A DNA stretch of 64,000 bases from positions 65,449 to 129,448 of the forward strand of contig CP065013.1 of NCBI GenBank assembly GCA_016700315.1, given 5' to 3'. The notes below the pieces were generated by a model that searched no databases, had not been told where the DNA came from, and was given only the letters and a program-made list of their open reading frames with translations. The first letter of the stretch is position 1. The number at the start of each line of letters is the position of its first letter. The translations under genes were made by a program, and so were the position numbers. Origin of the DNA: Candidatus Saccharimonadota bacterium. GTDB taxonomy: Bacteria; Patescibacteriota; Saccharimonadia; Saccharimonadales; SZUA-47. Positions 3,263 through 63,374 of this stretch are shown here, in pieces.

Positions 3263-3925
3263 TTAGGGTACGAAGGTTAGGCTTTCTAGCACTATGTTGT
3301 CGAAATCACTGGCGAATTCTTTGCTTTCGCTATAAATAAATATCGTTTTATCACGTAGCGGCAGTATTACCATAGATCCCACTTTACGAGAATCGACTTC
3401 CCCGTCTAGTCTTGTGCCCAGTATCGATGGCACTAATTTGGCCCGGTACGGCATTGCTGTCAGCTTACCGCTTTTAATCGAGGATTTATACGACTCTAGT
3501 GTTTTATCGTAGTTCTGATTCGTTACTCTAACTTTCAGAGCATAAGAAAAACTATCGCTAACTCCCGATGACGGTATCAAGATTGGATGAAAAGTGGCAT
3601 TGACAGGAGTTGAGGCACTTGGATTGGTAAGGCCGCTCCAGGTTTTGGGATAAGAGAAAGTAATCTGGCCATAGGTTGGGTCGCCTTGAAACTGCCGTGT
3701 AGGCTGTTTCTCTTTTTCGGCAAACTCTAGTTCCTTTTTGCTAGCTTCTTGTTTCTTGGCAACTTCTACGGCCTCGGCTATTTTCTTATCAACACTTGTT
3801 TGTAAATCCTGCTTGCGAGCAAAAGTAAAAGCACCAAAAACGCTACTGACAACAAACAAAACACCTAAAGTAATAGCTACGACTAAAGTAGCTGCTACTT
3901 CCCCACGATAATAACGCTTGTGCAT
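3263..3925 (-). CDS. hypothetical membrane-anchored exported protein
   Basis: The ORF track gives 3263..4042. I trimmed it to the ATG at 3925 (MHKRYYRGEVAATLVVAITLGVLFVV) to avoid overlap with 3963..4457. It has a single N-terminal TM helix and no recognised family. Confidence 0.5.
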   Translation of the reverse strand: MHKRYYRGEVAATLVVAITLGVLFVVSSVFGAFTFARKQDLQTSVDKKIAEAVEVAKKQEASKKELEFAEKEKQPTRQFQGDPTYGQITFSYPKTWSGLTNPSASTPVNATFHPILIPSSGVSDSFSYALKVRVTNQNYDKTLESYKSSIKSGKLTAMPYRAKLVPSILGTRLDGEVDSRKVGSMVILPLRDKTIFIYSESKEFASDFDNIVLESLTFVP

Positions 3926-3962
3926 ATCTGTAATATTACTTGAGTTTAAATCGCTATGCAAG

Positions 3963-4457
3963 CTAGTTGTACATGTAAAGCAGCATGCCTTGCCTCTCAT
4001 CAGATATGCTTTTTTCAGGTATCCTGAAAGCATAACTAACAAGTTTAACCGGCTTAACCTTACATTCGTTTATAATTTTTTTGTGCAATCTCTGCATAAA
4101 CCTTGTGTGCAGAAATACAAATATGCCATCTGCATCGGAGACGCTGGTAGTCCAAAAATTACCCCACCTTACAGTTACGAGCTGGCCATAACGGCGGGTT
4201 CTGAGCCACGCGATTATCACTAGAAACAAGTTTATTTCTACTCCTACGGCTTTAATTCCTTGTTGTGCAGCTAAGCTCAGGATTTTACCGTCACCGCAAC
4301 CAAGATCAAATAATGTTTGACCCTTTTTTAGATCAAGCATTTTAAGCGCCACTTCAGCTTGTGGCCTAAGGGTCGGCAGGTACGGTGCTCCGACAAAAAC
4401 CACGATTCCGAAAAGCAATATGACCGCCAAAACTATTATTAATATCAATGCCGGCAT
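3963..4457 (-). CDS. class I SAM-dependent methyltransferase with an N-terminal TM anchor
   Basis: 164 aa. A hydrophobic N-terminus is followed by SAM motif I, LFDLGCGDGKILSLAA. Confidence 0.7.
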   Translation of the reverse strand: MPALILIIVLAVILLFGIVVFVGAPYLPTLRPQAEVALKMLDLKKGQTLFDLGCGDGKILSLAAQQGIKAVGVEINLFLVIIAWLRTRRYGQLVTVRWGNFWTTSVSDADGIFVFLHTRFMQRLHKKIINECKVKPVKLVSYAFRIPEKSISDERQGMLLYMYN

Positions 4458-12714: not shown

Positions 12715-13155
12715 TTATGCTTCGTGAGGTAATTTTACGCCACTTTGTTTGGCGAGCTCAATAACTAGATTATAAATCTCTATCACTCTACCCTTTTGGG
12801 TTTTACTCTTAAAACTAGGCGTCGGCATATTTGCCATAGAATATAACTCTTTGATATCTGTTTCGATAGCAGCCAATCTACCTTCAACTCGGGTGAGCCT
12901 ATCAACAACATCACGTTGCGTTGATTCCATGCTAACCATGCGGGTTTCTAAGCCGTCCATGCGATTGTCCAAACCGTCCATGTGGGTTTCTAGACCGTCC
13001 ATGCGGGTTTCTAAGCCGTCCATGCGGGTTTCTAGACCACCGAACCTCTCATCTACTTTATCAAACCTGTCTGTAACTTCATTCGCAAAATTACCGATCA
13101 TATCTGTTAGCTGATCGATCTTTTTATCCAGGACTGTAAATTCATTAGACTTCAT
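12715..13155 (-). CDS. coiled-coil protein with five tandem MDGLETR-type heptads
   Basis: The ORF track starts at a TTG (13173); the first ATG is at 13155 (MKSNEFTVLDKK). The repeat reads GGLETRMDGLETRMDGLETHMDGLDNRMDGLETRM. Confidence 0.55.
   Translation of the reverse strand: MKSNEFTVLDKKIDQLTDMIGNFANEVTDRFDKVDERFGGLETRMDGLETRMDGLETHMDGLDNRMDGLETRMVSMESTQRDVVDRLTRVEGRLAAIETDIKELYSMANMPTPSFKSKTQKGRVIEIYNLVIELAKQSGVKLPHEA
12937..13041 (-). repeat. 5 x 21-nt tandem repeat inside the CDS
   Basis: The units on the + strand are catgcgggtttctaagccgtc, catgcgattgtccaaaccgtc, catgtgggtttctagaccgtc, catgcgggtttctaagccgtc and catgcgggtttctagaccacc. Confidence 0.9.
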
Positions 13156-13226
13156 ACTAACATTATAAATCAATCATGCGTACGAGGTTGCAGTATCTTT
13201 TACTTAAAAAACGGCAAAATCACAAC

Positions 13227-15316: not shown

Positions 15317-15388
15317 AAACCCCTTCTGCTCCCACGCTTATGGATATATTTTACACATTGCTCCGACAATAGACAAGAGAAATAAGAA

Positions 15389-15836
15389 GGCTTAAGGTTA
15401 TTGGTTAGACTGACTGGGAACCAAGGTCTAGGAGCTACGGACCCGGGTCTAGTAGCTAGCAAGTATTACCCCGTACTGCCTACCGCTCAAGTAGAGTCAA
15501 GAGTCAAGAGTCATGAACCAAGAGCTAGGGACTCGAATCTAGGGTCTAGGGACTAGGGACGAGTTTATAGTTTATAGTTGATGGTTTATAAAAGAGCAAT
15601 GATTAGGTTATAGGTTAGAGGTTAGAGTTTAGAGTGATTAGTAGGACTACGGTCTAGGGTCCAGGGACTAGGGTCTATTATAGAATTTAGAGCTTAGAAT
15701 TTAGAATTTTACGCTTGCTACTTACTACTAACTACTCGCTACTATCTCTGGGCTTATACTTTATACATAATACTTAATACTATCTAGAGCTTAGATTTTC
15801 TATCCCCTCGTTCATCGTCCGCCTTCGGTGGGCTTG
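15389..15836. repeat. mosaic of phase-locked heptanucleotide tandem repeats
   Basis: Manual phasing gives 58 consecutive 7-mers (15389-15794) in one register, in blocks of related units (gagtcaa x3, tagggtc/cagggac, tttatag, ggttaga, gaattta, ctactaa, ttaatac). Confidence 0.85.
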
Positions 15837-17235: not shown

Positions 17236-17288
17236 CACATATTCCTTATCTGTATAAGGACGGACCTTATACAGATAAGGAATATGTG
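17236..17288. repeat. perfect 24-bp inverted repeat (hairpin with a 5-nt loop)
   Basis: cacatattccttatctgtataagg / acgga / ccttatacagataaggaatatgtg. It lies in the 360-nt spacer downstream of the CHAP hydrolase gene. Confidence 0.9.
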
Positions 17289-18618: not shown

Positions 18619-18800
18619 GATTAGGGATTAGCAGCAAGCAGTAAGTCCGCCGAAGGCGGGCCTAGAACGATGAACGAAGAACGAGGAAGTCGAAAATCTA
18701 AAAAAAATTCATAAACAGTTATCAGCAAACAGTCTTCAGTCTTCATTCACGAGTATTCAGTCTTCATCTATCAACTATAAACCCGAAGCTTTAGCCCTTA
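18619..18800. repeat. phase-locked heptamer tract (26 units) ending at the ftsX stop codon
   Basis: gattagg gattagc agcaagc agtaagt ccgccga aggcggg cctagaa cgatgaa cgaagaa cgaggaa ... agtcttc agtcttc attcacg agtattc agtcttc atctatc aactata, all in one register. Confidence 0.8.
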
Positions 18801-29004: not shown

Positions 29005-29073
29005 CTATAATTATTATACAACTAACAGTCTACAGTCTACAGCTTTTAGTTATTATTTTTTGCTTTTTAGGAT

Positions 29074-29862
29074 TTATGATATAGATTTTAGTGCTTTTAG
29101 AGTTAGCTCTGTTCTGGCTTTGGCATAAGCACAGAATTCGCAAGGACCGCCCATGGCAGCCGTACCCACCTCTGGCATTTTGTCGTTATCAAGACAATTT
29201 TTCATGGCAACAAGCGTATCGCCCACCCAGTCGCTCTTGCCTTTATGCGGGAAAACATGAGTCTCGAACTCAACAACATTGTTAAAGCCGGCACGATCAG
29301 TCGTTCCGGTAGCATAAACAAAGTAACCAGTATCGCTGACGTCGAAGCCATTGGCTCGTAGTAACCATTGATAAATCTCCATCTGCCGGCGGTACATGTC
29401 TTGCCAGCCGCCTTCAGCGCCTAGTTCTTTAACGGGCTTATCTTTGGCAGTAGCTTTGTAGTCAACGACCATCAGTTTGCCGGCATCATCCACCCAGATG
29501 TCGTCTACTGCGCCAAAAACGTGTAAGTTCGTAGGTTCGTGCAGAGTCGCAACCCCAACAAAATTCTCTCGCCAAGTATCGAGATCTTTGTGAGCATAAG
29601 GCACCGCTCTTACTTTGTGTTCAAGCATCAAAGGATGCGGCTCAGCTTTGGCCCGATACATATCAAACTCTTTCTTAAAAAGTTCGTCGATGGCTTTATT
29701 GATATTGAACGGCGGGCTACTGGGCCGTTTAATCTTAAGCCGGGCGTCTAGCCAAAAACAACGTGGGCACTGCATGAAAAGTTCGATCTTACTACGGCTT
29801 ACTTTAAACGGCTCTTTCTGCCCTGACTGATACGGTTTTGATCTCTCCCTCATGTAACTCAT
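29074..29862 (-). CDS. PD-(D/E)XK (RecB/Cas4-like) nuclease family protein with terminal Cys pairs
   Basis: 262 aa with QCPRC near the N-terminus, VVDYKA (D-x-K core), QMEIYQWLL (QxxxY) and a C-terminal CEFC. Confidence 0.65.
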   Translation of the reverse strand: MSYMRERSKPYQSGQKEPFKVSRSKIELFMQCPRCFWLDARLKIKRPSSPPFNINKAIDELFKKEFDMYRAKAEPHPLMLEHKVRAVPYAHKDLDTWRENFVGVATLHEPTNLHVFGAVDDIWVDDAGKLMVVDYKATAKDKPVKELGAEGGWQDMYRRQMEIYQWLLRANGFDVSDTGYFVYATGTTDRAGFNNVVEFETHVFPHKGKSDWVGDTLVAMKNCLDNDKMPEVGTAAMGGPCEFCAYAKARTELTLKALKSIS

Positions 29863-29921
29863 GTACTTAGGTTATAGGTTTTAGGTTAGAGGGTCTAGGG
29901 TTAAAGTTACAACTAGGATGA

Positions 29922-30356
29922 TTATTTAATGTTTGGCCTAGCTTTTTGCTTCTCATTTAAGTGAGAAACAATCGGACCAACTATTGCTACTAAAACTGCC
30001 GAGCCTAGCGGAAAAACTAATAAGCTTTTTCTAAAACGTGCGTCGTTTGTGGCATCCTGTTTTTCAGCAATTCGCGTCAGGTCTTCTTTTGTCGGTACAA
30101 CATAAGTAACTCTTTTGGATGTATTGGAGTTTTCATGAGTATAGACTTCAGTCCTGGTTATTAGGACAGACAAGGCTGCGCACGAATCGGGTAGTTCGGA
30201 AATTTTAGTTCCTGGAGTTGGTAAGGCTTGTACGCATTTGTCGACCTTTGGGGAATGCTCAGGTCCTTCAGTAAGACCTATTGCCAAAGGCACCATACCC
30301 CCCATGCCGGCCCCTAAAGCTCCATAAGCTAACATTTGTTTAATCAGTTTAGTCAT
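29922..30356 (-). CDS. hypothetical membrane protein
   Basis: 144 aa with hydrophobic N- and C-terminal segments. No recognised family. Confidence 0.45.
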   Translation of the reverse strand: MTKLIKQMLAYGALGAGMGGMVPLAIGLTEGPEHSPKVDKCVQALPTPGTKISELPDSCAALSVLITRTEVYTHENSNTSKRVTYVVPTKEDLTRIAEKQDATNDARFRKSLLVFPLGSAVLVAIVGPIVSHLNEKQKARPNIK

Positions 30357-43759: not shown

Positions 43760-43856
43760 ATGTAATTGATTATAGATTATAGATTATAGAATTCCGAATT
43801 TTGTGGGACCATTAAGTTGCACTGACCCAAATAGACATAAAATCTACCCGCAGCGA

Positions 43857-43960
43857 ACTACTACTAACTACTAACTACTAACTACTAACTACTAACTACT
43901 AACTACTAACTACTAACTACTAACTACTAACTACTAACTACTAACTACTAACTACTAACT
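43857..43960. repeat. (CTACTAA)14 perfect heptamer array abutting the greA stop codon
   Basis: I counted 14 consecutive perfect copies at 43861-43958, plus a degenerate copy on the lysS-proximal (low-coordinate) side. On the transcribed minus strand the unit is TTAGTAG. Confidence 0.95.
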
Positions 43961-47781: not shown

Positions 47782-48030
47782 CTAAAAATTACGATACGTT
47801 TGATCGTCTCGTCTGGAGAGCTCTAAAATAATGACAGTGCCTGTTGTTTTCTTGCTAAAAATAATTCGAATTTGGCCTTTTCGAACTCTATAAATATCTT
47901 TGTGGCCTTTTAAAGGTTTTACGTCAAGATTGTCCAACTGATCATTACGAATGTCTAGAAGCAAAGACTCGAAAAGTTCAAATTCTTTGCGGGATAGTTT
48001 ATTTAGAAACTTTTCGATCTTATCGGCCAT
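47782..48030 (-). CDS. RelE/ParE family toxin
   Basis: I start at the internal ATG (MADKIEKFLNKL), 82 aa. LKGHKDIYRVRKGQIRIIFSKK...ILELSRRDDQTY matches the RelE pattern. It overlaps the antitoxin gene by 11 nt. Confidence 0.7.
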   Translation of the reverse strand: MADKIEKFLNKLSRKEFELFESLLLDIRNDQLDNLDVKPLKGHKDIYRVRKGQIRIIFSKKTTGTVIILELSRRDDQTYRNF

Positions 48031-48298
48031 ACTTATCAGGATTATCTCGCTTGACCTTTTCCATAGCACCCAATATATCTTTGATCTCCACACCTTCGTG
48101 GTTGACCTTGGTAAAATCTATTACTGTTTGCCAGACTTCTTCCTCGACAGGCACAATACGAAAAACTGCTTCGCTTTTTCGCCGCACCAAATAACTTTGG
48201 CCACTTCGAACTGCCTCAACAACCTCGTCTGCATTTAGCCTTAGCTGTCTTAAGCCTATTTCTCGTACTTTTTTTGGGTTAGATTCAATAATTTTCAT
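48020..48298 (-). CDS. Phd/YefM-like antitoxin
   Basis: 92 aa, immediately upstream of and overlapping the RelE-like gene. Confidence 0.6.
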   Translation of the reverse strand: MKIIESNPKKVREIGLRQLRLNADEVVEAVRSGQSYLVRRKSEAVFRIVPVEEEVWQTVIDFTKVNHEGVEIKDILGAMEKVKRDNPDKYGR

Positions 48299-48327: not shown

Positions 48328-48384
48328 CTGTCAAATTACTAGTTTATCTTACTTTAGAATTTAGGATTTAGTACTTAGAATTTA

Positions 48385-48948
48385 CTAAAGTGTCATTATT
48401 TCTTGCTCTCTGGCTTTGGCTACCGACTCAATTTCGGCTTTGACCTTTGCCATAGCTTCGTCGATCTGCTTTTCTAGTCGGGCTACGTCATCTTTACTTG
48501 CAAGCTTATCTTTTTCGGCTTGAGTAATTTTACTCCTAGCTTCGTGTCGGGCGTTGCGCATAGCAATCATGCTCTCCTCAAGCTTTTCATGGAGCTGCTT
48601 AACGATTTGGGCGCGGCGTTCAGTTGTGAGCGGCGGTATCTGCAGGCGTATCACATGACCATCGTCCGAGGGGTTCAAGCCCAGACTCTGGTTGTCACGA
48701 ATTGCTTGAGAGATGGCACTCAGGTTACTTGGGTCAAAAGGAGAAATTTGAATCAGCTGAGCCTCAGGAGTAGTAATAGTAGCCAGCTGAACCAGTGGCA
48801 TTGGCGTGCCGTAGGCTAGCGCAGTGACACCCTCAACCATGCTCGGGTGGGCCCGGCCAGTACGAAGCTTCTTGGCCTCGTCCTCAAAACGTTCACGAGC
48901 TTTGTCGAACTCTTTTTTGGCTGTTTCTAGATAAGAATTTGGGTTCAT
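48385..48948 (-). CDS. frr: ribosome recycling factor
   Basis: 187 aa. GRAHPSMVEGV ... IRLQIPPLTEERR-type sequence (here IRLQIPPLTTERR). Confidence 0.9.
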   Translation of the reverse strand: MNPNSYLETAKKEFDKARERFEDEAKKLRTGRAHPSMVEGVTALAYGTPMPLVQLATITTPEAQLIQISPFDPSNLSAISQAIRDNQSLGLNPSDDGHVIRLQIPPLTTERRAQIVKQLHEKLEESMIAMRNARHEARSKITQAEKDKLASKDDVARLEKQIDEAMAKVKAEIESVAKAREQEIMTL

Positions 48949-50545: not shown

Positions 50546-50629
50546 AAAAAATCCTTTCAGTAAATTTTAGTTGTTGGTAGATAGAAGATGGTAGATGGTA
50601 GCTCTCAACTACCAAATACTAACTACTGC

Positions 50630-53355: not shown

Positions 53356-53694
53356 ATGAAAAAAGATATCCACCCGACCAATTATCAGTTTGTTGTTTTC
53401 GAAGATTTGAACGACGGCACGCGCTTTTTGACACGCGCATGTGTTGCCAGTGAGGAAACAACTAAATGGGAAGATGGCAACACCTACCCATTAGTTAAAG
53501 TGCACATTTCAAGCTCTTCTCACCCATTCTTCACTGGTCAAGAGAAGCTAATCGACATCGAAGGCCGCGTTGACAAGTTTGAAGCTCGCCGCAAAGCCGC
53601 CGAAGAAGCCCGCAAAGCCGCTGCCGCTCGTGTCAGCAAGGCAGATAAAAAAGCTGCGAAAGCCGAAAAAGACGAATCCAAGAAAATAGGTTAG
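53356..53694 (+). CDS. rpmE: 50S ribosomal protein L31 (type B, no CxxC) with a Lys/Ala-rich C-terminal extension
   Basis: First ATG at 53356. [21 protein letters not shown]...HPFFTG matches the L31 pattern. Confidence 0.85.
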
Positions 53695-53717
53695 AGGTTA
53701 TAGGTTAGAGGTTATAG
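53689..53717. repeat. heptamer tract ggttaga ggttata ggttaga ggttata overlapping the rpmE stop
   Basis: Read directly from the sequence. An inverted, imperfect copy lies inside prfA at 54318-54348. Confidence 0.85.
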
Positions 53718-53721
53718 ATAA

Positions 53722-54075
53722 ATGCCTATAACTTCTTACGAGCAACTTACCGTATGGCAAAAGTCTTTCGAACTAGTGAGACAAGTGTATGTTTTGACAG
53801 AAAAGCTGCCTAAACACGAGCAGTTTGGGTTATCTAACCAGATTCGACGTTGTGCAGTTTCGATACCAAGTAATATAGCTGAAGGACAACAAAGACATAG
53901 CCGAAAAGAGTATCTGCAGTTTCTGGCAATAGCAAGAGGCTCGGCTGCAGAACTGGATACCCAACTACTACTTATTGAGAGTATCTACGGTTTAGATTGC
54001 GAAAAAGAACTAAGCTTACTAGACGAAGTACAAAGAATGCTTACTGTATTAACAAATAAACTTAGCGCTTTATAA
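53722..54075 (+). CDS. four-helix-bundle protein (23S rRNA intervening-sequence protein / Avd-like family)
   Basis: 117 aa. [70 protein letters not shown] is the family signature. Confidence 0.8.
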
Positions 54076-54082
54076 TATACTT

Positions 54083-55135
54083 ATGGATAAACACGGCAAA
54101 CTAAAAGAAGAACTATCGCAAATCGACTTACAATTAAGCGATAGCTCTATATACTCGTCGCCTAAATACCCTGCACTCGCTAGAAGAAAAAGTGAAATAG
54201 AGAAGCTAAATGAGCTTTTTGAGCAACAAGCGAAACTATCTAGAGATCTCAAAGAAGCTGAAGTATTAGCAAATGGTACTGATGAACTTGCCGAACTAGC
54301 TAAGGAAGAAGTTAAATCTATAACCTCTAACCTCTCCACTATAACCTCGAGTCTGGAGGAGGCTTTGCTTCCCAAAGACCCGAATGATAACAAAGACTGC
54401 ATTATTGAAATTCGGGCTGGCGCTGGTGGTGACGAGTCAAGCCTTTTCGGAGCTGAGCTATACAAAATGTATGCACGCTACGCCGAGACTCACTCCCTCA
54501 AAATCGAGCTTTTAAGCGAAAGCCCAAGTGAAGTCGGCGGTTTCAAAGAAATAATCTTTGCCGTCCGCGGCGACAGCGCATATGGCCTGCTCAAATATGA
54601 GGCCGGCGTGCACCGTGTACAACGCGTCCCTGCTACAGAAAGTCAGGGCCGGATTCATACCTCGACTGTCACTGTTGCCGTACTGCCTGAAGCCGAAGAA
54701 ACAGACATCGAAATCAGCCCGAACGACCTGCGCATAGATGTCTACCGCAGTAGTGGTAATGGCGGCCAAAGCGTCAACACTACCGACTCGGCGGTACGTA
54801 TTACTCATTTACCAAGTGGAGTGGTTGTAACCTGCCAAGATGAAAAGTCCCAGATCAAAAACAAGCTAAAAGCTATGGGCGTGCTCCGCTCGCGCCTACT
54901 TCAGGCCAAAATTGACGCTGAAAACGCTAAGCTCAGCGCTGAACGGAAAGCGCTCATTGGCTCTGGCGATCGTAGCGAAAAAATCCGCACCTACAACTTC
55001 CCTCAAGACCGCATTACTGACCACCGAATTGGCTACTCGCGCTCTAACATCCCAGCAGCACTTGCTGGGCAGATCGAAGACCTCTTTGAAGAGCTCAAAA
55101 AAGCCGAACTCTCCTTGCTAAAAACCGAAGTTTAA
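54083..55135 (+). CDS. prfA: peptide chain release factor 1
   Basis: 350 aa with the PAT tripeptide ([17 protein letters not shown]) and the GGQ motif ([22 protein letters not shown]). Confidence 0.9.
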
Positions 55136-55358: not shown

Positions 55359-55443
55359 GCATTTATGATATCAACCTAGCTGATATATTCAAAATTGTAT
55401 ACCATTTTTAGTTAGTTTGGCCGTTGTTGAGTACAATACTTCT

Positions 55444-56292
55444 ATGACTATTAAAAGATGGATTTTAGATAGTACTCTATTATTAAGCCCCTACTCCGCT
55501 ACCGCAAGATTAGACTGCGAGGTATTGCTAGCGCACGTTTTAGACAAAGATAGAGTTTGGCTGCTGGCTCACCCAGAGCACGTTCTTCAAGGACAGTCCC
55601 TGAAAAGAGTAGATCGGTATTTGCAGCGCCGTAAATCTCAGGAACCGATCGCTTACATAATCGGCCACAGTGAATTTTATGGGCGTGAGTTTGAGGTTTC
55701 GGCTGATACTCTGCAGCCGCGCCCGGAAACAGAGACCATGGTTGAGCTTCTTCTCGACACAATAAACAGTAAACAGTTGTCGGTAAACAGTATTGTTGAT
55801 GTTGGCACTGGATCTGGCGCAATTATTATCTCTGCATTCCTAGAGCTCTCTATCAACCATAAACTATCAACTATCAACTTCCATGCTACCGACATCAGCC
55901 CAGCTGCTTTAGAAATCGCCCGTCAAAACGCTAAGAGGTACGATGCTGATATCAAATTCTATCAAGGAGATTTACTAGGTCCCCTACTATCTACTATCTA
56001 CCATCTACCATCTGCCATAATTCTGGCTAATCTGCCCTATGTGCCAGACAGCCACACAATCAATCAAGCCGCCATGCACGAACCAAAACACGCTATTTTC
56101 GGCGGCACTGATGGCCTCGATTTGTATAGAACTATGTTCGACCAACTATCAACTATCAACTATCAACTATCAACTATCCTGTTTACAGAATCTTTACCTC
56201 CGCAGCATAAAGAATTAGCTCGGATTGCCGAACAAGCTGGCTTCAAGCAAATTGCCGAACAAGACTTTATCCAAGTTTTCGAAAAAAAGTAA
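55444..56292 (+). CDS. prmC: release-factor glutamine methyltransferase PrmC-like, with heptamer-encoded segments and NLPY in place of NPPY
   Basis: EPIAYIIGHSEFYGREFEV, LQPRPETE and motif I VDVGTGSGAI are present. Motif IV reads ANLPYV. I start at the ATG at 55444; the track starts at a TTG, 55417. Confidence 0.7.
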   Translation: MTIKRWILDSTLLLSPYSATARLDCEVLLAHVLDKDRVWLLAHPEHVLQGQSLKRVDRYLQRRKSQEPIAYIIGHSEFYGREFEVSADTLQPRPETETMVELLLDTINSKQLSVNSIVDVGTGSGAIIISAFLELSINHKLSTINFHATDISPAALEIARQNAKRYDADIKFYQGDLLGPLLSTIYHLPSAIILANLPYVPDSHTINQAAMHEPKHAIFGGTDGLDLYRTMFDQLSTINYQLSTILFTESLPPQHKELARIAEQAGFKQIAEQDFIQVFEKK

Positions 56293-56316
56293 TACTTTTT
56301 GTGTATAATTGCAATA

Positions 56317-56919
56317 ATGAATGTCGGGATTAGTAAAACTCAACGTACTGAGCTGGACACGATGTCTAGCCCAGAAGTATTAGGCAGATATTTTGAAAGT
56401 CTTCAGCAAGTAGCACGGCAAGGAGAAGCCATACGCGAAGAGGTAACAGACGGAGAAATCGAAGGAGCGTACACAGCTGGGTGGTCTTTAGGCAATCTAC
56501 GCTTTATTGAGGGCAAAGACCCTATCGAATCGGCCGATTTAGACCCAGTTACTATAACTAATGCCAAGTTTTTCAGAGCTCAGACTAGACTAGAAAGTTA
56601 TATTAACAACCGTTTTTTGGGCAGTATGGTGCAAGTAATACCACTCGATCAAGAAATTGTAGCAGCAAGAGCACCCTGGGGGACACTGTCTGTTGTGCCA
56701 CACTTTCTGAGGGGTGGTGAGACGAGACTTAATCATGCAAGATTACTAGCATTTGGGACTTCATCAAATGGCCGAACGGTGTTGTCTGTTGTAACAAGAC
56801 GAGGCTTACCTTCTATTACCCACTATATGAACATCGTTGGACCTGACGGTCCCAAAATCAGCATTAGTGTTAGAGATGACAAAAAACGCATGTCAGCAAA
56901 ATCTATATCCAGACTTTAG
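56317..56919 (+). CDS. hypothetical protein
   Basis: First ATG at 56317, with TATAAT at 56304-56309 just upstream. No recognised domain. Confidence 0.45.
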   Translation: MNVGISKTQRTELDTMSSPEVLGRYFESLQQVARQGEAIREEVTDGEIEGAYTAGWSLGNLRFIEGKDPIESADLDPVTITNAKFFRAQTRLESYINNRFLGSMVQVIPLDQEIVAARAPWGTLSVVPHFLRGGETRLNHARLLAFGTSSNGRTVLSVVTRRGLPSITHYMNIVGPDGPKISISVRDDKKRMSAKSISRL

Positions 56920-57010
56920 TATGTAACTTACTGAAACTTAGCCCCCTTCTTCGAACTCCTGAGGAGTTGAGTGCCAAATAGACAATCAGAATGATGGGAG
57001 TGTTTTAATA

Positions 57011-57035
57011 CCCCACGAAATATCATTTCGTGGGG
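57011..57035. terminator. 11-bp stem hairpin in a convergent intergenic region
   Basis: ccccacgaaat / atc / atttcgtgggg. It lies between the 3' ends of 56317..56919 (+) and htrA (-). There is no strong U-tract. Confidence 0.45.
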
Positions 57036-57237
57036 GCCACTATTAAAGCTTAATCAAGAAAAATATTATTGTGTATTTTTCTTGTCAAGCAAGTTGCCCG
57101 AATATTGTCTTATTTGACTACGAAAGCATCAAGAGTTTGAAGCGGGGGTCGTTTCTTTCGTCTATTTCTTTGCGACAAAAGAAATGGACTCGACAAAGCC
57201 AGGCGAAGCCGGGTGGCGAAACAAGGTGAAAAAGTGA

Positions 57238-61607: not shown

Positions 61608-63374
61608 TTAACGAGACGCTAAAAATACCTTGTTTGAATCAAGTGACCTATTTAAGACTTCGGCTGAGGTGAGCCTAGCGAAGTTGGCATAGCCGCCGAT
61701 GTGAGCTAGGTTAGTTAGACCTTCGGCTGAGGTGAGCCTATCGAAGTAGGCATCGCCGCCGATGTGAGCTAGGTTAGTTAGACCTTCGGCTGAGGTGAGC
61801 CTATCGAAGTAGGCATCGCCGCCGATGTGAGCTAGGTTAGTTAGACCTTCGGCTGAGGTGAGCCTAGCGAAGTTGGCATAGCCGCCGATGTGAGCTAGGT
61901 TAGTTAGACCTTCGGCTGAGGTGAGCCTAGCGAAGTTGGCATAGCCGCCGATATGAGCTAGGTTAGTTAGACCTTCGGCTGAGGTGAGCCTATCGAAGTT
62001 GGCATAGCTGCCGATGTGAGCTAGGTTTGTTAGACCTTCGGCTGAGGTGAGCCTATCGAAGTAGGCATCGCCGCCGATGTGAGCTAGGTTAGTTAGACCT
62101 TCGGCTGAGGTGAGCCTATCGAAGTTGGCATCGCCGCCGATGTGAGCTAGGTTAGTTAGACCTTCGGCTGAGTTGAGCCTAGCGAAGTTGGCATAGCCGT
62201 TTATCGTTCTAACTCCTTCAAGTATTAGAGCAAGAAGCTCGTTACTATTACCAAAGTAATTAACATCTACATTTGAATTATTGATTATGTCTGCTAAATT
62301 ACTTGGCCGACTAGATAGATCGTATTCGTCACTGAAACTAAGGCTGCCAAACAATACGTCTGACGCATCGAGATTTGCTAGCTTTTCCAGTTCGACCAGC
62401 TGACCCTGCCGCGTGAGTAACGTGTTTTCTGGTAGTTTAATATCCAGCACTTTAGGAGGCTTTTCATCTCTCGCAAGCTTGCTCATTAGTACCCCCAGAC
62501 CAGCAAAAACCTCCTCCCAATTTTGGCCACCAACAACCACAGCTTTATTGTCGCTAGTCTTGATCTGCTTTATGCTGTGGCTTGCAACGACATATTCGAT
62601 AGAATAGTGCTGACTAGAAGCATCAGCCTGATTTACTCGTATCGAGAAGAACCTTGCTTTGCCAACTTCAAGAGCTTTAGAGTAGGAGGTAGACGTACCG
62701 ATACAGTGACCGGTTACAACCGACTCTTGGGCTAAATGTTCTTTAGTAGTAAGCTCTACAAGACTGAATGAGTCACTTTCGTGGATTAAGCTAGGTTCGG
62801 CACCTTCGGCGTTGGCGGCATTGCGCCTAGCTTCGGCAATCCTTTGCTCGGTTACCGCATTGTGGCGTGCTATAAGCTTGCCTATGCCACCGTTATTTTT
62901 GGCTGCTTTCGGAGCAGTGGCTGGGGCGATGCAACCTAAAGTTTCAGAACTCAGCTCAGTCAAAGGAACTTTGAACCACTCAACTACGCTTGCTCGTTTT
63001 TTGGCGATGCTCTTGCTGGTGGCAGCAGGATTGCTTACATAGGCTAGTAGCCCTTCGATTATGGAGTCGGCTATAGTTGAAGAATCGGCTACATCCTCAT
63101 TTGCCTGACTACCGTCAAGGACTGATTCGATAAAGTACTGCGCAATTTTATGAGCTAGCAGCCTTCTACGCTCACCTTTTGTTTCTCCGTTATTATCTGA
63201 GCCTAGGAACTCACCAACATATGTCATATTGCGCTGCGCAGTGTACTCTACGAGTTGGTCGCGCTCAGCCAGTGTCCCAACTACTTCATCTGTAAGTTTT
63301 TCAACCGAACCTAGGAATGCTAACTGCTCAGGGGTCAAAGCTTCGATTGATGGCAATATGGATGTCATGGTCAT
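61608..63374 (-). CDS. PcfJ-like domain protein fused to a C-terminal array of 21-aa leucine-rich repeats
   Basis: 588 aa. The central segment LAQESVVTGHCIGTSTSYSKALEVGKARFFSIRV...HYSIEYVV..IKQIKTSDNKAV fits my memory of the PcfJ-like motif. The C-terminus has 8 full LTSAEGLTNLAHIGGxAxFxR units. Confidence 0.6.
   Translation of the reverse strand: MTMTSILPSIEALTPEQLAFLGSVEKLTDEVVGTLAERDQLVEYTAQRNMTYVGEFLGSDNNGETKGERRRLLAHKIAQYFIESVLDGSQANEDVADSSTIADSIIEGLLAYVSNPAATSKSIAKKRASVVEWFKVPLTELSSETLGCIAPATAPKAAKNNGGIGKLIARHNAVTEQRIAEARRNAANAEGAEPSLIHESDSFSLVELTTKEHLAQESVVTGHCIGTSTSYSKALEVGKARFFSIRVNQADASSQHYSIEYVVASHSIKQIKTSDNKAVVVGGQNWEEVFAGLGVLMSKLARDEKPPKVLDIKLPENTLLTRQGQLVELEKLANLDASDVLFGSLSFSDEYDLSSRPSNLADIINNSNVDVNYFGNSNELLALILEGVRTINGYANFARLNSAEGLTNLAHIGGDANFDRLTSAEGLTNLAHIGGDAYFDRLTSAEGLTNLAHIGSYANFDRLTSAEGLTNLAHIGGYANFARLTSAEGLTNLAHIGGYANFARLTSAEGLTNLAHIGGDAYFDRLTSAEGLTNLAHIGGDAYFDRLTSAEGLTNLAHIGGYANFARLTSAEVLNRSLDSNKVFLASR
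61659..62205 (-). repeat. about 8.7 x 63-nt near-identical tandem repeat (coding LRR units)
   Basis: The unit start ttcggctgagg recurs at 61659, 61722, 61785, 61848, 61911, 61974, 62037, 62100 and 62163, an exact 63-nt spacing. Confidence 0.9.

What the first reader, a model, noticed from the sequence alone, without database searches (positions are those of the whole stretch)
29866..29921. Heptamer tracts begin exactly at stop codons of the upstream gene
The tract here reads cttaggt tataggt tttaggt tagaggg tctaggg ttaaagt tacaact aggatga. It ends at 29921, and the stop codon of the upstream minus-strand gene occupies 29922-29924.
The same abutment occurs at four other sites:
- greA: array to 43958, stop at 43960-62.
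- frr: tttagaa tttagga tttagta cttagaa tttacta at 48353-48387, overlapping the stop at 48385-87.
- ftsX: tract to 18800, stop at 18798-800.
- rpmE on the + strand: tract from 53689, stop at 53692-94.
Such consistent placement argues for a function or insertion preference tied to translation termination or 3' UTR starts, rather than random slippage.
Basis: seen in the sequence. Interest (0 to 1): 0.6.

Follow-up and report, generated by a model that had tools for sequence, protein, structure and literature searches.

The report
Heptamer repeat tracts at gene ends
This stretch of a Saccharibacteria (TM7) genome is peppered with unstable 7-base tandem repeats that fill the small gaps between genes; they touch stop codons in three of the five places claimed (not the focal one), a bias already described in other bacteria, and one tract is the arm of a selfish 'intervening-sequence' gene cassette.

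Summary
The period-7 tracts are real: 19 at lag 7 against 0-1 at other lags, and 15 lie in the 12% of non-coding DNA. The abutment claim holds at 3 of 5 sites (greA, frr, rpmE). At the focal site the periodicity decays by 29899-29907. The 14-22 nt next to the stop are not repeat units, and the tract sits 3-12 nt from the next gene's start. At ftsX the tract ends 17-31 nt short.

The host is a Saccharibacteria, not a cyanobacterium. In 18 Saccharibacteria spacers, stop contact matches uniform placement. In 61 metagenomic spacers it is about twice that expected (24 vs 11.7-18.2), with no excess on the start side. Rehm 2015 and MacGregor 2015 already reported this bias.

Strain comparisons show slippage: 6, 8.5 or 14 copies at greA, motif replacement, and a frameshift in prmC. 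Protein C-termini stay fixed.

Best reading: these are hypermutable heptanucleotide repeats, rich in TAG/TAA, sitting in dispensable DNA next to stops. No termination function is shown.

Unexpectedly, the rpmE tract is the 5' arm of an IVS-like cassette. It holds a PF05635 four-helix-bundle gene flanked by inverted heptamer arrays, an architecture seen in four phyla.

The parts
29866..29907 (.). Focal heptamer tract: 5 clear units plus 1 degenerate unit, reading TAACCTA/ACCCTAG-type on the transcribed minus strand
   Evidence: identical in 10 independent assemblies
29908..29921 (.).
   Evidence: TRF and my detector both end the tract earlier
29922..30356 (-). 144-aa ORF with no family match; its stop TAA is at 29922-24
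29074..29862 (-). PD-(D/E)XK nuclease-family gene; its start lies 3-12 nt from the focal tract
43860..43960 (.). (ACTACTA)14.4 tract that abuts and overlaps by 1 nt the greA stop at 43960-62; copy number is polymorphic
43768..43790 (.). (GATTATA)3.3 tract, 8 nt from the start codon of the class II (D/K/N-type) aminoacyl-tRNA synthetase gene (43759)
48353..48387 (.). TTTAGAA-type tract whose last unit contains the frr stop TAG (48385-87)
53686..53719 (+). AGGTTAG/AGGTTAT tract. It contains the rpmE stop (53692-94) and fills the spacer to the IVP start. It is the 5' arm of the inverted pair.
53722..54075 (+). PF05635 / TIGR02436 four-helix-bundle gene ('23S rRNA intervening sequence protein', S23p)
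54316..54347 (+). Tract inside prfA (about codons 79-89), complementary to 53688-53719: 32 nt, 84% complementary, 596 nt apart
18664..18766 (.). GAACGAA and CAGTCTT tracts in the CHAP-ftsX spacer; they end 17-31 nt before the ftsX stop (18798-800)
15386..15800 (.). About 60-unit, nearly phase-coherent period-7 lattice of changing motifs between pyrG and an S41 peptidase gene
29025..29042 (.). (ACAGTCT)2.6 tract in the serS-PD-(D/E)XK spacer, mid-spacer
50575..50601 (.). TGGTAGA tract in the rpsB-tsf spacer, mid-spacer
55759..56178 (+). Four heptamer tracts inside the prmC coding sequence (55759-92, 55850-79, 55984-56018, 56143-78). None puts a stop in the prmC reading frame (two are stop-free on the sense strand in all three frames); the last three carry stops on the antisense strand.

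Best explanation
The tracts are hypermutable heptanucleotide simple-sequence repeats in a compact Saccharibacteria genome.

Slipped-strand mispairing creates them and changes their copy number. This step is shown by the copy-number polymorphisms.

They persist only where sequence is dispensable. That means the few tens of bases between genes and a few tolerant loop- or helix-coding segments. This step is shown by their distribution.

Their units are rich in TAG/TAA, so three consecutive units close all three reading frames. A tract can therefore lie directly against a stop codon, or even contain it, without altering the protein. It cannot overlap a start codon, ribosome-binding region or promoter.

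Deletion bias and selection then leave nothing between the stop and the tract, while the functional 5' region of the next gene is kept. This last step is inferred.

The result is a modest pile-up of tract edges at stop codons. It is a by-product of constraint, not a termination device. The focal tract is simply one such filler. It occupies most of a 59-nt spacer and lies closer to the next start than to the stop.
For: - The period-7 excess is specific to that period: 19 tracts against 0-1 at other periods. Fifteen of the 19 lie in the 12% non-coding DNA, and the median spacer is 39 nt.
- Slippage: the greA tract has 6, about 8.5 or 14 copies with identical GreA, the stop codon is TAA or TAG, and contigs break inside the tract. 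The prmC CAACTAT tract has 5 or 4 copies, and the 4-copy form causes a frameshift.
- Turnover with a fixed protein end: three haplotypes downstream of frr (a TTCTAAA tract, TAGTTGA x4, or no tract) all keep the ...IMTL C-terminus and the same stop position.
- The prmC C-terminus changes (KK*, FSSK*, NTV*) exactly where the variable DNA begins. In one haplotype a 347-nt heptamer mosaic is bounded by the end of prmC on one side and by the stop of the convergent gene on the other.
- Composition: TAG and CTA make up 6.1% and 7.4% of trinucleotides in intergenic tracts against about 2% in other spacers. Most tracts close 3 frames on the sense strand. Inside prmC no tract puts a stop in the reading frame: two are stop-free on the sense strand in all frames, and the other two carry TAA only out of frame.
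- Position statistics: in 18 Saccharibacteria spacers the relative position has mean 0.41 (Wilcoxon p = 0.23). Seven tracts lie within 9 nt of a stop and 8 within 9 nt of a start. Five overlap a stop and none overlaps a start.
- Wider set: 24 of 61 tracts lie within 3 nt of the stop against 11.7-18.2 expected, while the start side equals expectation.
- There is no RNA structure (z about 0 to -1.5), no promoter or terminator match, and no Rfam hit.
- Literature: MacGregor 2015 (PMC4679880) states that forward repeats carry stops in all three frames and so lie at ORF ends. Rehm 2015 (PMC4692102) reports the stop-proximal bias in Xanthomonas and Nostoc. It also cites the earlier polymerase-slippage proposal for heptamers (its ref. 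33).
Against: - Uniform seeding within a spacer does not by itself predict the two-fold stop-side excess seen in the metagenomic set. The deletion-bias and constraint-asymmetry step is inferred, not shown.
- The focal tract is invariant in 10 assemblies. That is not what a highly unstable repeat would show, although short degenerate tracts are expected to be stable.
- Slippage alone does not explain why units are so TAG/CTA-rich even far from stops.
- Intragenic tracts are concentrated in prmC and prfA (15 of 21).
- At least one tract (rpmE) belongs to a structured cassette.
- The metagenomic sample was ascertained by one motif, (AGGTTAN)3, which carries stops on both strands.
Confidence: 0.6

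Rival explanations
1. The tracts are arms, or decayed solo arms, of selfish IVS-like cassettes. Each cassette is a PF05635 (S23p, four-helix-bundle) gene bracketed by inverted heptamer arrays. The cassettes insert in the spacer right after a stop codon, so the stop-codon placement reflects an insertion preference.
For: - rpmE site: the arms at 53688-53719 and 54316-54347 are 84% complementary. Their duplex energy is -37.6 kcal/mol against -11.8 +/- 3.5 for 605 control windows.
- In Saccharibacteria, 5 of 9 IVP genes have a tract within 20 nt, against 19 of 1151 other genes (P = 3e-7).
- Fifteen or 16 of 18 plasmid-borne homologues carry flanking period-7 arrays, at least 11 as inverted pairs. 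They come from Nostocales, other cyanobacteria, Riemerella and Azospirillum, and were chosen without regard to repeats.
- The 5' arm starts 0-10 nt after the upstream stop in most cases.
- The Coxiella IVS has the same parts: an S23p ORF, a 28-bp terminal stem cut by RNase III, and strain-variable GACAGAT heptamers (PMC4990558).
- Among rpmE-prfA spacers, 4 of 6 with the IVP gene have tracts, against only one real tract (L047) among 37 without it (4 flagged at the low detection threshold).
Against: - The focal, greA and frr tracts have no inverted partner within 1.5 kb.
- The small ORFs beside them are not IVP-like (hhalign probability 1% or less).
- Ten of 16 tract-positive Saccharibacteria loci have no IVP gene in the 20 kb held.
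- Only a few of the stop-touching metagenomic cases have an IVP gene nearby.
Confidence: 0.2
2. The tracts are a functional translation module. It would provide fail-safe stops in all three frames and an unstructured spacer directly after the stop. Such a module would catch read-through or frameshifted ribosomes, or set the spacing for re-initiation on the next cistron.
For: - Most intergenic tracts close all three frames on the transcribed strand.
- The tract RNA is unstructured.
- The flanking genes are often translation genes (frr, rpmE, rpsB-tsf, prfA, prmC, and the serS and class II D/K/N-type aminoacyl-tRNA synthetase genes).
- The stop-side enrichment exists in the wider set.
- Heptamer repeats near starts have been reported to affect expression in Nostoc (bioRxiv 10.1101/2022.06.06.494920).
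Against: - Tracts are present, replaced by another motif, or absent at the same stop in sister strains with the same protein.
- Copy number is free to vary from 6 to 14.
- The same motif occurs in both orientations relative to transcription.
- Some tracts (50575-50601, 18664-18688) have no stop on the sense strand.
- The window as a whole is dominated by housekeeping genes, so the gene-class association was not tested.
Confidence: 0.12
3. At the five listed sites the abutment is coincidence. Tracts of 25-100 nt in spacers of 27-200 nt must lie near a gene end.
For: - The rpmE spacer is 27 nt and its tract 32 nt. The two greA-spacer tracts, taken as one block, span 193 of its 200 nt.
- The window expectation is 1.2-2.9 contacts against 3 observed (P 0.016-0.65, depending on the null). 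For 18 spacers it is 4.7-6.9 against 6.
- Two of the five claimed sites do not abut at all.
Against: The 61-spacer set shows a significant excess specific to the stop side. It also holds for contigs with GC of 0.5 or less (12 of 37 against 3.6-7.4) and for Pfam-verified genes. Independent published observations agree.
Confidence: 0.08

Closest known systems
Heptanucleotide long simple-sequence repeats of prokaryotes (Mrazek and co-workers 2007, as summarised in PMC4679880 and PMC4692102)
   Same: Tandem 7-nt units, over-represented relative to other unit lengths, mostly intergenic, and variable in length between close relatives. Slippage was proposed as the origin.
   Different: The host here is a Saccharibacteria (CPR). 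I found no report for this phylum in the searchable library. Arrays here are often mosaics of several motifs on one period-7 lattice.
GGGAATC / GGGGA(C/T)T heptamer repeats of Xanthomonas and Nostoc (Rehm et al. 2015, PMC4692102)
   Same: Mostly intergenic. That paper reports a strong bias to lie very close to, or overlapping, the stop codon of the upstream ORF, and length variation between related strains.
   Different: Those units are G-rich and can form quadruplexes. The window's units are TAG/CTA-rich with no G-runs. In this lineage the stop bias is not significant with n = 18.
TAACTGA direct repeats of Beggiatoaceae, cyanobacteria and Bacteroidetes (MacGregor 2015, PMC4679880)
   Same: Heptamers with stops in all frames in one orientation, which therefore overlap upstream stops. 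They are translatable in the reverse orientation inside ORFs: LSVISYQ there, LSTINYQ in prmC here. Many end a few nt before a start codon.
   Different: That family has one dominant unit and a strong orientation and start-codon preference. The window has many units, in both orientations.
STRR (short tandemly repeated repetitive) heptamers of heterocystous cyanobacteria (from my own knowledge: Mazel et al. 1990; also cited)
   Same: Tandem heptamers dispersed in intergenic DNA.
   Different: STRR consensus units (CCCCAGT, TTGGTCA, CAACAGT) are not the units found here, and the organism is not a cyanobacterium.
Intervening sequence (IVS) elements carrying an S23p ORF in 23S rRNA genes (Coxiella, Leptospira; PMC4990558)
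   Same: For the rpmE tract only: a PF05635 ORF, complementary termini predicted to form a long stem, and tandem heptamers upstream of the ORF.
   Different: Here the cassette is inserted in a protein operon (rpmE-IVP-prfA), not in rRNA. The 3' arm lies inside the prfA coding sequence. RNase III cleavage was not tested.
Phase-variable contingency loci (SSRs in coding regions)
   Same: A unit length that is not a multiple of three inside prmC. A one-unit difference (5 to 4) truncates the protein from 285-287 aa to 258 aa in two assemblies.
   Different: There is no evidence that the switch is used. An assembly error cannot be excluded, and prmC is a housekeeping gene rather than a surface or restriction gene.

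Membership tests
Heptanucleotide long SSR (general class) | Head-to-tail tandem copies of a 7-nt unit, over-represented relative to other unit lengths | tested here: met
   19 tracts at lag 7 against 0-1 at lags 4-12; TRF rows
Heptanucleotide long SSR (general class) | Predominantly intergenic | tested here: met
   15 of 19 lie in the 11.8% non-ORF DNA; 29 of 50 in 1.17 Mb of Saccharibacteria loci with 11.6% non-coding
Heptanucleotide long SSR (general class) | Copy-number polymorphism between close relatives | tested here: met
   greA tract with 6, 8.5 or 14 copies; prmC tract with 5 or 4. The focal tract itself is invariant.
Cyanobacterial STRR | STRR1-3 consensus units in a heterocystous cyanobacterium | tested here: not met
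   The units differ. All close frr relatives are Saccharimonadales MAGs.
Stop-proximal heptamer repeats (Rehm 2015) | Tract edge within a few nt of, or overlapping, the upstream stop more often than expected | tested here: inconclusive
   Window: 3 of 8. Saccharibacteria: 6 of 18 against 4.7-6.9. Mixed metagenomic set: 24 of 61 against 11.7-18.2.
Stop-proximal heptamer repeats (Rehm 2015) | G-rich unit able to form a G-quadruplex | tested here: not met
   The window's units have no G3-4 runs
TAACTGA repeats (MacGregor 2015) | The unit TAACTGA | tested here: not met
   No such unit among the 19 tracts. The nearest is TAGTTGA in strain L103.
TAACTGA repeats (MacGregor 2015) | Stops in all three frames in one orientation; open in the other orientation when inside ORFs | tested here: met
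   prmC translation
IVS element with S23p ORF | ORF of family PF05635 / TIGR02436 | tested here: met
   53722-54075: Pfam E = 5e-36, TIGR02436 E = 1e-34, PDB 2gsc E = 2e-24
IVS element with S23p ORF | Complementary termini forming a long stem around the ORF | tested here: met
   32-nt arms, 84% complementary. Duplex energy -37.6 kcal/mol, z = -7.4. The 3' arm lies inside prfA.
IVS element with S23p ORF | Located in a 23S rRNA gene helix | tested here: not met
   It lies between rpmE and prfA. There is no rRNA in the window.
IVS element with S23p ORF | Excision of the stem by RNase III | not testable with these tools
   Needs RNA end mapping or an in vitro RNase III assay, as in PMC4990558
Phase-variable contingency locus | Frameshifting repeat-number variants of a coding SSR in natural populations | tested here: inconclusive
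   The 4-copy variant truncates PrmC in L084 and L085. Both assemblies come from related ENA samples, and read-level support was not checked.

The most novel reading that the evidence does not exclude
Heptamer arrays in bacteria may not be only a slippage curiosity. They may be the terminal arms and footprints of a widespread family of selfish IVS-like cassettes, each a PF05635 (S23p, Avd-like four-helix-bundle) gene bracketed by inverted heptamer arrays. These cassettes lodge in inter-cistronic spacers directly after stop codons in protein operons. Examples are rpmE-prfA and frr in Saccharibacteria, and cas6-cas4, cas10-cmr3 and nrdB-nrdA on cyanobacterial plasmids.

Under this reading, free-standing tracts at gene ends, and the colonised sites in prfA and prmC, are solo or captured arms. 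The cassette would be the missing vehicle for the patchy, cross-phylum distribution of heptamer repeats that MacGregor 2015 could not explain. The stem may make host operon transcripts substrates for RNase III.
Probability: 0.3. Interest if true: 0.7.

Novelty: new member of a known kind. Interest (0 to 1): 0.4.

Why it matters
Taken as stated, the finding re-discovers a published property of bacterial heptamer repeats in a new host phylum, so it is only modestly interesting. Stop-proximal placement is in Rehm 2015, and overlap of stops through three-frame stop content is in MacGregor 2015.

Three things raise its value.

1. Saccharibacteria have tiny, streamlined genomes, yet some lineages tolerate mutable heptamer arrays. 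These arrays even invade essential translation-termination genes (prfA, prmC) and break metagenome assemblies.

2. The strain comparisons give an unusually clean picture of how gene ends act as hard boundaries for hypervariable spacer DNA.

3. There is a tight link between PF05635 'intervening sequence protein' genes and inverted heptamer arrays across four phyla. In the library I searched, this link is documented only for the Coxiella rRNA IVS. It offers a testable origin and vehicle for these repeats, and a possible role for a protein family of unknown function.

Tried and rejected
1. I first assumed cyanobacterial STRR repeats. I rejected this when frr relatives proved to be Saccharimonadales and the units did not match.

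2. 'Stop-codon-seeded' expansion, in which the tract grows from the heptamer containing the stop. For tracts starting 0-12 nt after a stop, the stop is in phase with the recurrent in-tract stop triplet in 5 of 30 cases against 4.7 expected. Not supported.

3. 'The tract supplies a new stop after invading the gene.' The frr C-terminus and stop position are identical with a tract, with a different tract, or with none. The L31 C-terminus ...KIG is shared with relatives. This is supported only for the prmC tail variants.

4. RNA structure, terminator or promoter roles for the free-standing tracts. Fold z-scores run from about 0 to -1.5, there are no consensus sites, and no Rfam family matches.

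5. Inverted partners for the focal, greA and frr tracts. None within 1.5 kb.

6. Small ORFs next to tracts as degenerate IVP genes (92, 103, 99, 144, 206 and 130 aa). hhalign probability is 1% or less. The 92-aa ORF matches the Phd antitoxin family, and the 103-aa ORF has a sub-threshold ParE-toxin match (17.8 bits against a cut-off of 23), so a toxin-antitoxin pair is only suggested.

7. Spurious-ORF artefact as the cause of the stop enrichment. Sixteen of 20 upstream ORFs have Pfam domains, and the effect holds at GC of 0.5 or less.

8. An exact-protein look-up of the PD-(D/E)XK gene found nothing on record.

9. Literature searches for Saccharibacteria plus heptanucleotide or tandem repeats returned nothing.

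Full report
**What is there.** The window is 44% GC, 88% coding, and has a median intergenic spacer of 39 nt. A lag-match detector finds 19 tandem tracts at period 7, none at periods 4-6, 8 and 10, and one each at periods 9, 11 and 12. TRF gives the same picture. Fifteen of the 19 lie in the 12% of DNA outside long ORFs. The organism is not a cyanobacterium. All close relatives of its RRF in one-genome-per-species GTDB contigs are Saccharibacteria / Saccharimonadales MAGs, the best at 82% identity. Period-7 tracts, and essentially no other period, occur in 16 of the 65 related Saccharibacteria loci of at least 5 kb, and in the window itself.

**The five sites.**
- Focal site. Only cttaggt tataggt tttaggt tagaggg tctaggg, and marginally ttaaagt, are periodic. 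'tacaact aggatga' are not repeat units. TRF ends the array at 29899. The tract is therefore 14-22 nt from the stop at 29922-24. It is only 3 nt from the ATG at 29860-62 of the downstream PD-(D/E)XK gene, or 12 nt from the ATG that metagenome gene callers use.
- ftsX. The tract ends at 18766-18780, which is 17-31 nt before the stop.
- greA, frr and rpmE. The claim is correct at all three. (ACTACTA)14 runs to 43960 and the stop is at 43960-62. The frr stop TAG is in the last degenerate unit. The rpmE stop TAG is in the first unit, and that tract fills the entire 27-nt spacer.

**Is it more than chance?**
- For each spacer I compared the gap to the upstream stop with uniform placement of the tract in that same spacer.
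- Window: 3 of 8 touch the stop (within 3 nt), against 1.2-2.9 expected depending on the null.
- Eighteen Saccharibacteria spacers: 6 against 4.7-6.9. The relative position has mean 0.41 (p = 0.23). Seven edges lie within 9 nt of a stop and eight within 9 nt of a start. The only asymmetry is that five tracts overlap a stop and none overlaps a start.
- To enlarge the sample I scanned metagenome contigs for (AGGTTAN)3, which gave 120 loci from diverse taxa.
- In their 61 co-directional tract-bearing spacers, 24 tracts lie within 3 nt of the stop or overlap it, against 11.7 expected with no overlap allowed and 18.2 with 10 nt of overlap allowed (P from below 1e-4 to 0.02).
- The start side shows 10, which equals expectation. 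The median relative position is 0.25 (p = 0.0007).
- The effect holds for contigs with GC of 0.5 or less. Sixteen of 20 upstream ORFs have Pfam domains, so it is not an ORF-calling artefact.
- A stop-side bias therefore exists for this class of repeat. It is not demonstrable in this lineage, and the focal site is not an instance of it.

**What the tracts do in populations.**
- Contigs encoding identical GreA carry 6, about 8.5 or 14 copies, with the stop as TAA or TAG. Many contigs end inside the tract.
- Downstream of frr there are three haplotypes: a TTCTAAA-type tract, (TAGTTGA)4, or no tract. The downstream gene content differs between them. RRF always ends ...IMTL at the same codon.
- Downstream of prmC, a 206-aa ORF plus its spacer is replaced in other strains by a 347-nt mosaic of heptamers. 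The replacement is bounded by the end of prmC on one side and by the stop of the convergent protease gene on the other. The prmC tail reads KK*, FSSK* or NTV* according to what follows.
- The focal spacer is identical in ten assemblies.
- The 520-nt pyrG-peptidase spacer is an almost phase-coherent lattice of about 60 units with changing motifs.

**Composition.** TAG and CTA make up 6-7% of trinucleotides in intergenic tracts, against about 2% in other spacers and 1.6% in genes. Most tracts close all three frames on the transcribed strand. The tracts inside prmC put no stop in the reading frame: two are stop-free on the sense strand in all frames and the other two carry TAA only out of frame. 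The three detector-called ones carry stops on the antisense strand. No fold, promoter, terminator or Rfam signal accompanies the free-standing tracts.

**Interpretation.**
- These are heptanucleotide simple-sequence repeats maintained by slippage, confined to dispensable DNA and bounded by gene ends.
- Because they carry stops in every frame, they can touch or include a stop codon harmlessly. They cannot intrude on a start region.
- The DNA between a stop and the next functional element is the only free DNA in such spacers. I infer that this asymmetry of constraint, together with deletion bias, produces the pile-up at stops.
- I tested and did not support the idea that tracts grow out of the stop-containing heptamer. 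The stop is in phase with the tract's own stop triplets in 5 of 30 adjacent cases against 4.7 expected.
- Both halves of the observation are already published. Rehm et al. 2015 describe a strong bias of GGGAATC / GGGGA(C/T)T heptamers to lie next to or over the stop codon. MacGregor 2015 explains overlaps with upstream stops by three-frame stop content, and describes reverse-orientation repeats translated inside ORFs.
- I found no report for Saccharibacteria in the searchable library.

**An unexpected lead.**
[quoted passage not shown] Its best solved relative is Xanthomonas XCC0516, PDB 2gsc.
- The rpmE tract is complementary to a tract inside prfA: arms 53688-53719 and 54316-54347, 84% complementary. 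The duplex energy is -37.6 kcal/mol against -11.8 +/- 3.5 for 605 control windows.
- Of the 15 IVP-like ORFs found in the Saccharibacteria and metagenomic loci searched, ten have a heptamer tract 8-18 nt from the gene, often as inverted complementary arms.
- Within Saccharibacteria, 5 of 9 IVP genes have such a tract against 19 of 1151 other genes (P = 3e-7).
- Among rpmE-prfA spacers, 4 of 6 that contain the IVP gene carry tracts. Of the 37 without it, 4 are flagged at the low detection threshold and I judge only one (L047) a real heptamer tract. The prfA tract at codons 79-85 occurs in 3 of 6 against 1 of 37.
- As a sample chosen without regard to repeats, I took tblastn hits of the window protein on plasmids. 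There were 32 records, mostly Nostocales, with Riemerella, Azospirillum and Gemmatirosa as well. I fetched 18 regions.
- Fifteen or 16 of these have period-7 arrays in the flanks, at least 11 as inverted pairs with duplex z-scores of -3 to -11. The genes sit inside operons such as cas6-cas4, cas10-cmr3 and nrdB-nrdA.
- The Coxiella 23S rRNA IVS has the same ingredients: an S23p ORF, a 28-bp terminal stem cut by RNase III, and two or three strain-variable GACAGAT heptamers (PMC4990558). I found no paper generalising this link.
- The focal, greA and frr tracts have no inverted partner, and their neighbouring small ORFs are unrelated to IVP. The cassette therefore explains the rpmE site with confidence, but the other sites only speculatively.

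**Verdict.** A stop-side bias exists for the class and is already known, but no evidence ties it to a termination function. The finding is a new member of a known kind. The cassette association is the part worth following.

Noticed in passing
window 53686-54347; loci L017, L022, L035, L048, L068, L114, L213, L230-L247: PF05635 (S23p, four-helix-bundle, Avd-like) genes are flanked by inverted complementary heptamer arrays. This looks like an IVS-type cassette sitting in protein operons rather than in rRNA. It is seen in Saccharibacteria, cyanobacteria, Riemerella and Azospirillum. In the window the 3' arm lies inside prfA.
   Followed up: yes
window 55759-56178 (prmC 55443-56292); L022, L025, L035, L044, L068: Heptamer tracts lie inside the prmC coding sequence in six divergent Saccharibacteria lineages (12 of 21 intragenic tracts). 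All six have one at the loop just upstream of the N(P/L)PY motif, each with a different unit. In L022 and L068 two prmC tracts are inverted complements about 200 nt apart.
   Followed up: partly
L084, L085 against window 56143-56178: The CAACTAT tract has 4 instead of 5 copies in two assemblies. This shifts the frame and truncates PrmC to 258 aa. It could be phase variation of the release-factor methyltransferase or an assembly error.
   Followed up: partly
window 54316-54347 (prfA codons ~79-89); L022, L035, L047: The same helix-coding site of prfA carries a period-7 tract in four lineages. It occurs in 3 of 6 loci with an upstream IVP gene and in 1 of 37 without.
   Followed up: partly
window 15386-15800: A 520-nt spacer is almost entirely a lattice of about 60 heptamer units. 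The motifs change along it, but the period-7 phase is largely kept: 19 of 27 TAG triplets fall in two adjacent phases.
   Followed up: partly
window 47782-48298: Two small ORFs downstream of frr: a Phd-family antitoxin match (92 aa) and a sub-threshold ParE-toxin match (103 aa), so possibly a toxin-antitoxin pair. They are present in some strains, absent in others (L103-L105), and replaced by a different gene in L109.
   Followed up: partly
window 56283-57237 against L083/L087: A 206-aa ORF of unknown family plus its spacer is replaced in other strains by a 347-nt mosaic of heptamer runs. The replacement is bounded by the end of prmC on one side and by the stop of the convergent protease gene on the other.
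   Followed up: partly
L001 about 3530-4030 (greA-downstream spacer): One strain has an insertion of about 470 bp carrying a 99-aa ORF with no family match. It sits right at the distal end of the greA heptamer tract.
   Followed up: partly
window 61658-62199 (ORF 61608-63374, minus strand): A 63-nt unit repeated 8.6 times at 96% identity. It encodes 21-aa repeats (GLTNLAHIGGDAYFDRLTSAE) that look like leucine-rich repeats, at the C-terminus of a 588-aa protein.
   Followed up: partly
window 12936-13038 (ORF 12715-13173, minus strand): A 21-nt unit repeated 4.9 times inside a small coiled-coil protein, giving heptad-like 7-aa repeats.
   Followed up: no
window 17236-17288: A perfect 24-bp inverted repeat with a 5-nt loop in the spacer between the CHAP-domain gene and the S41 peptidase gene. 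It is unrelated to the heptamers.
   Followed up: no
L235, L241, L240 (cyanobacterial plasmids): Four-helix-bundle (S23p) genes with heptamer arms are inserted inside CRISPR-cas operons: between cas6 and cas4 in two cases, and between cas10 and cmr3 in one.
   Followed up: no
L003-L008, L091, L092: Metagenome contigs of this species frequently end inside heptamer tracts (greA, downstream of prmC). The repeats therefore fragment assemblies and are probably under-counted in MAGs.
   Followed up: no
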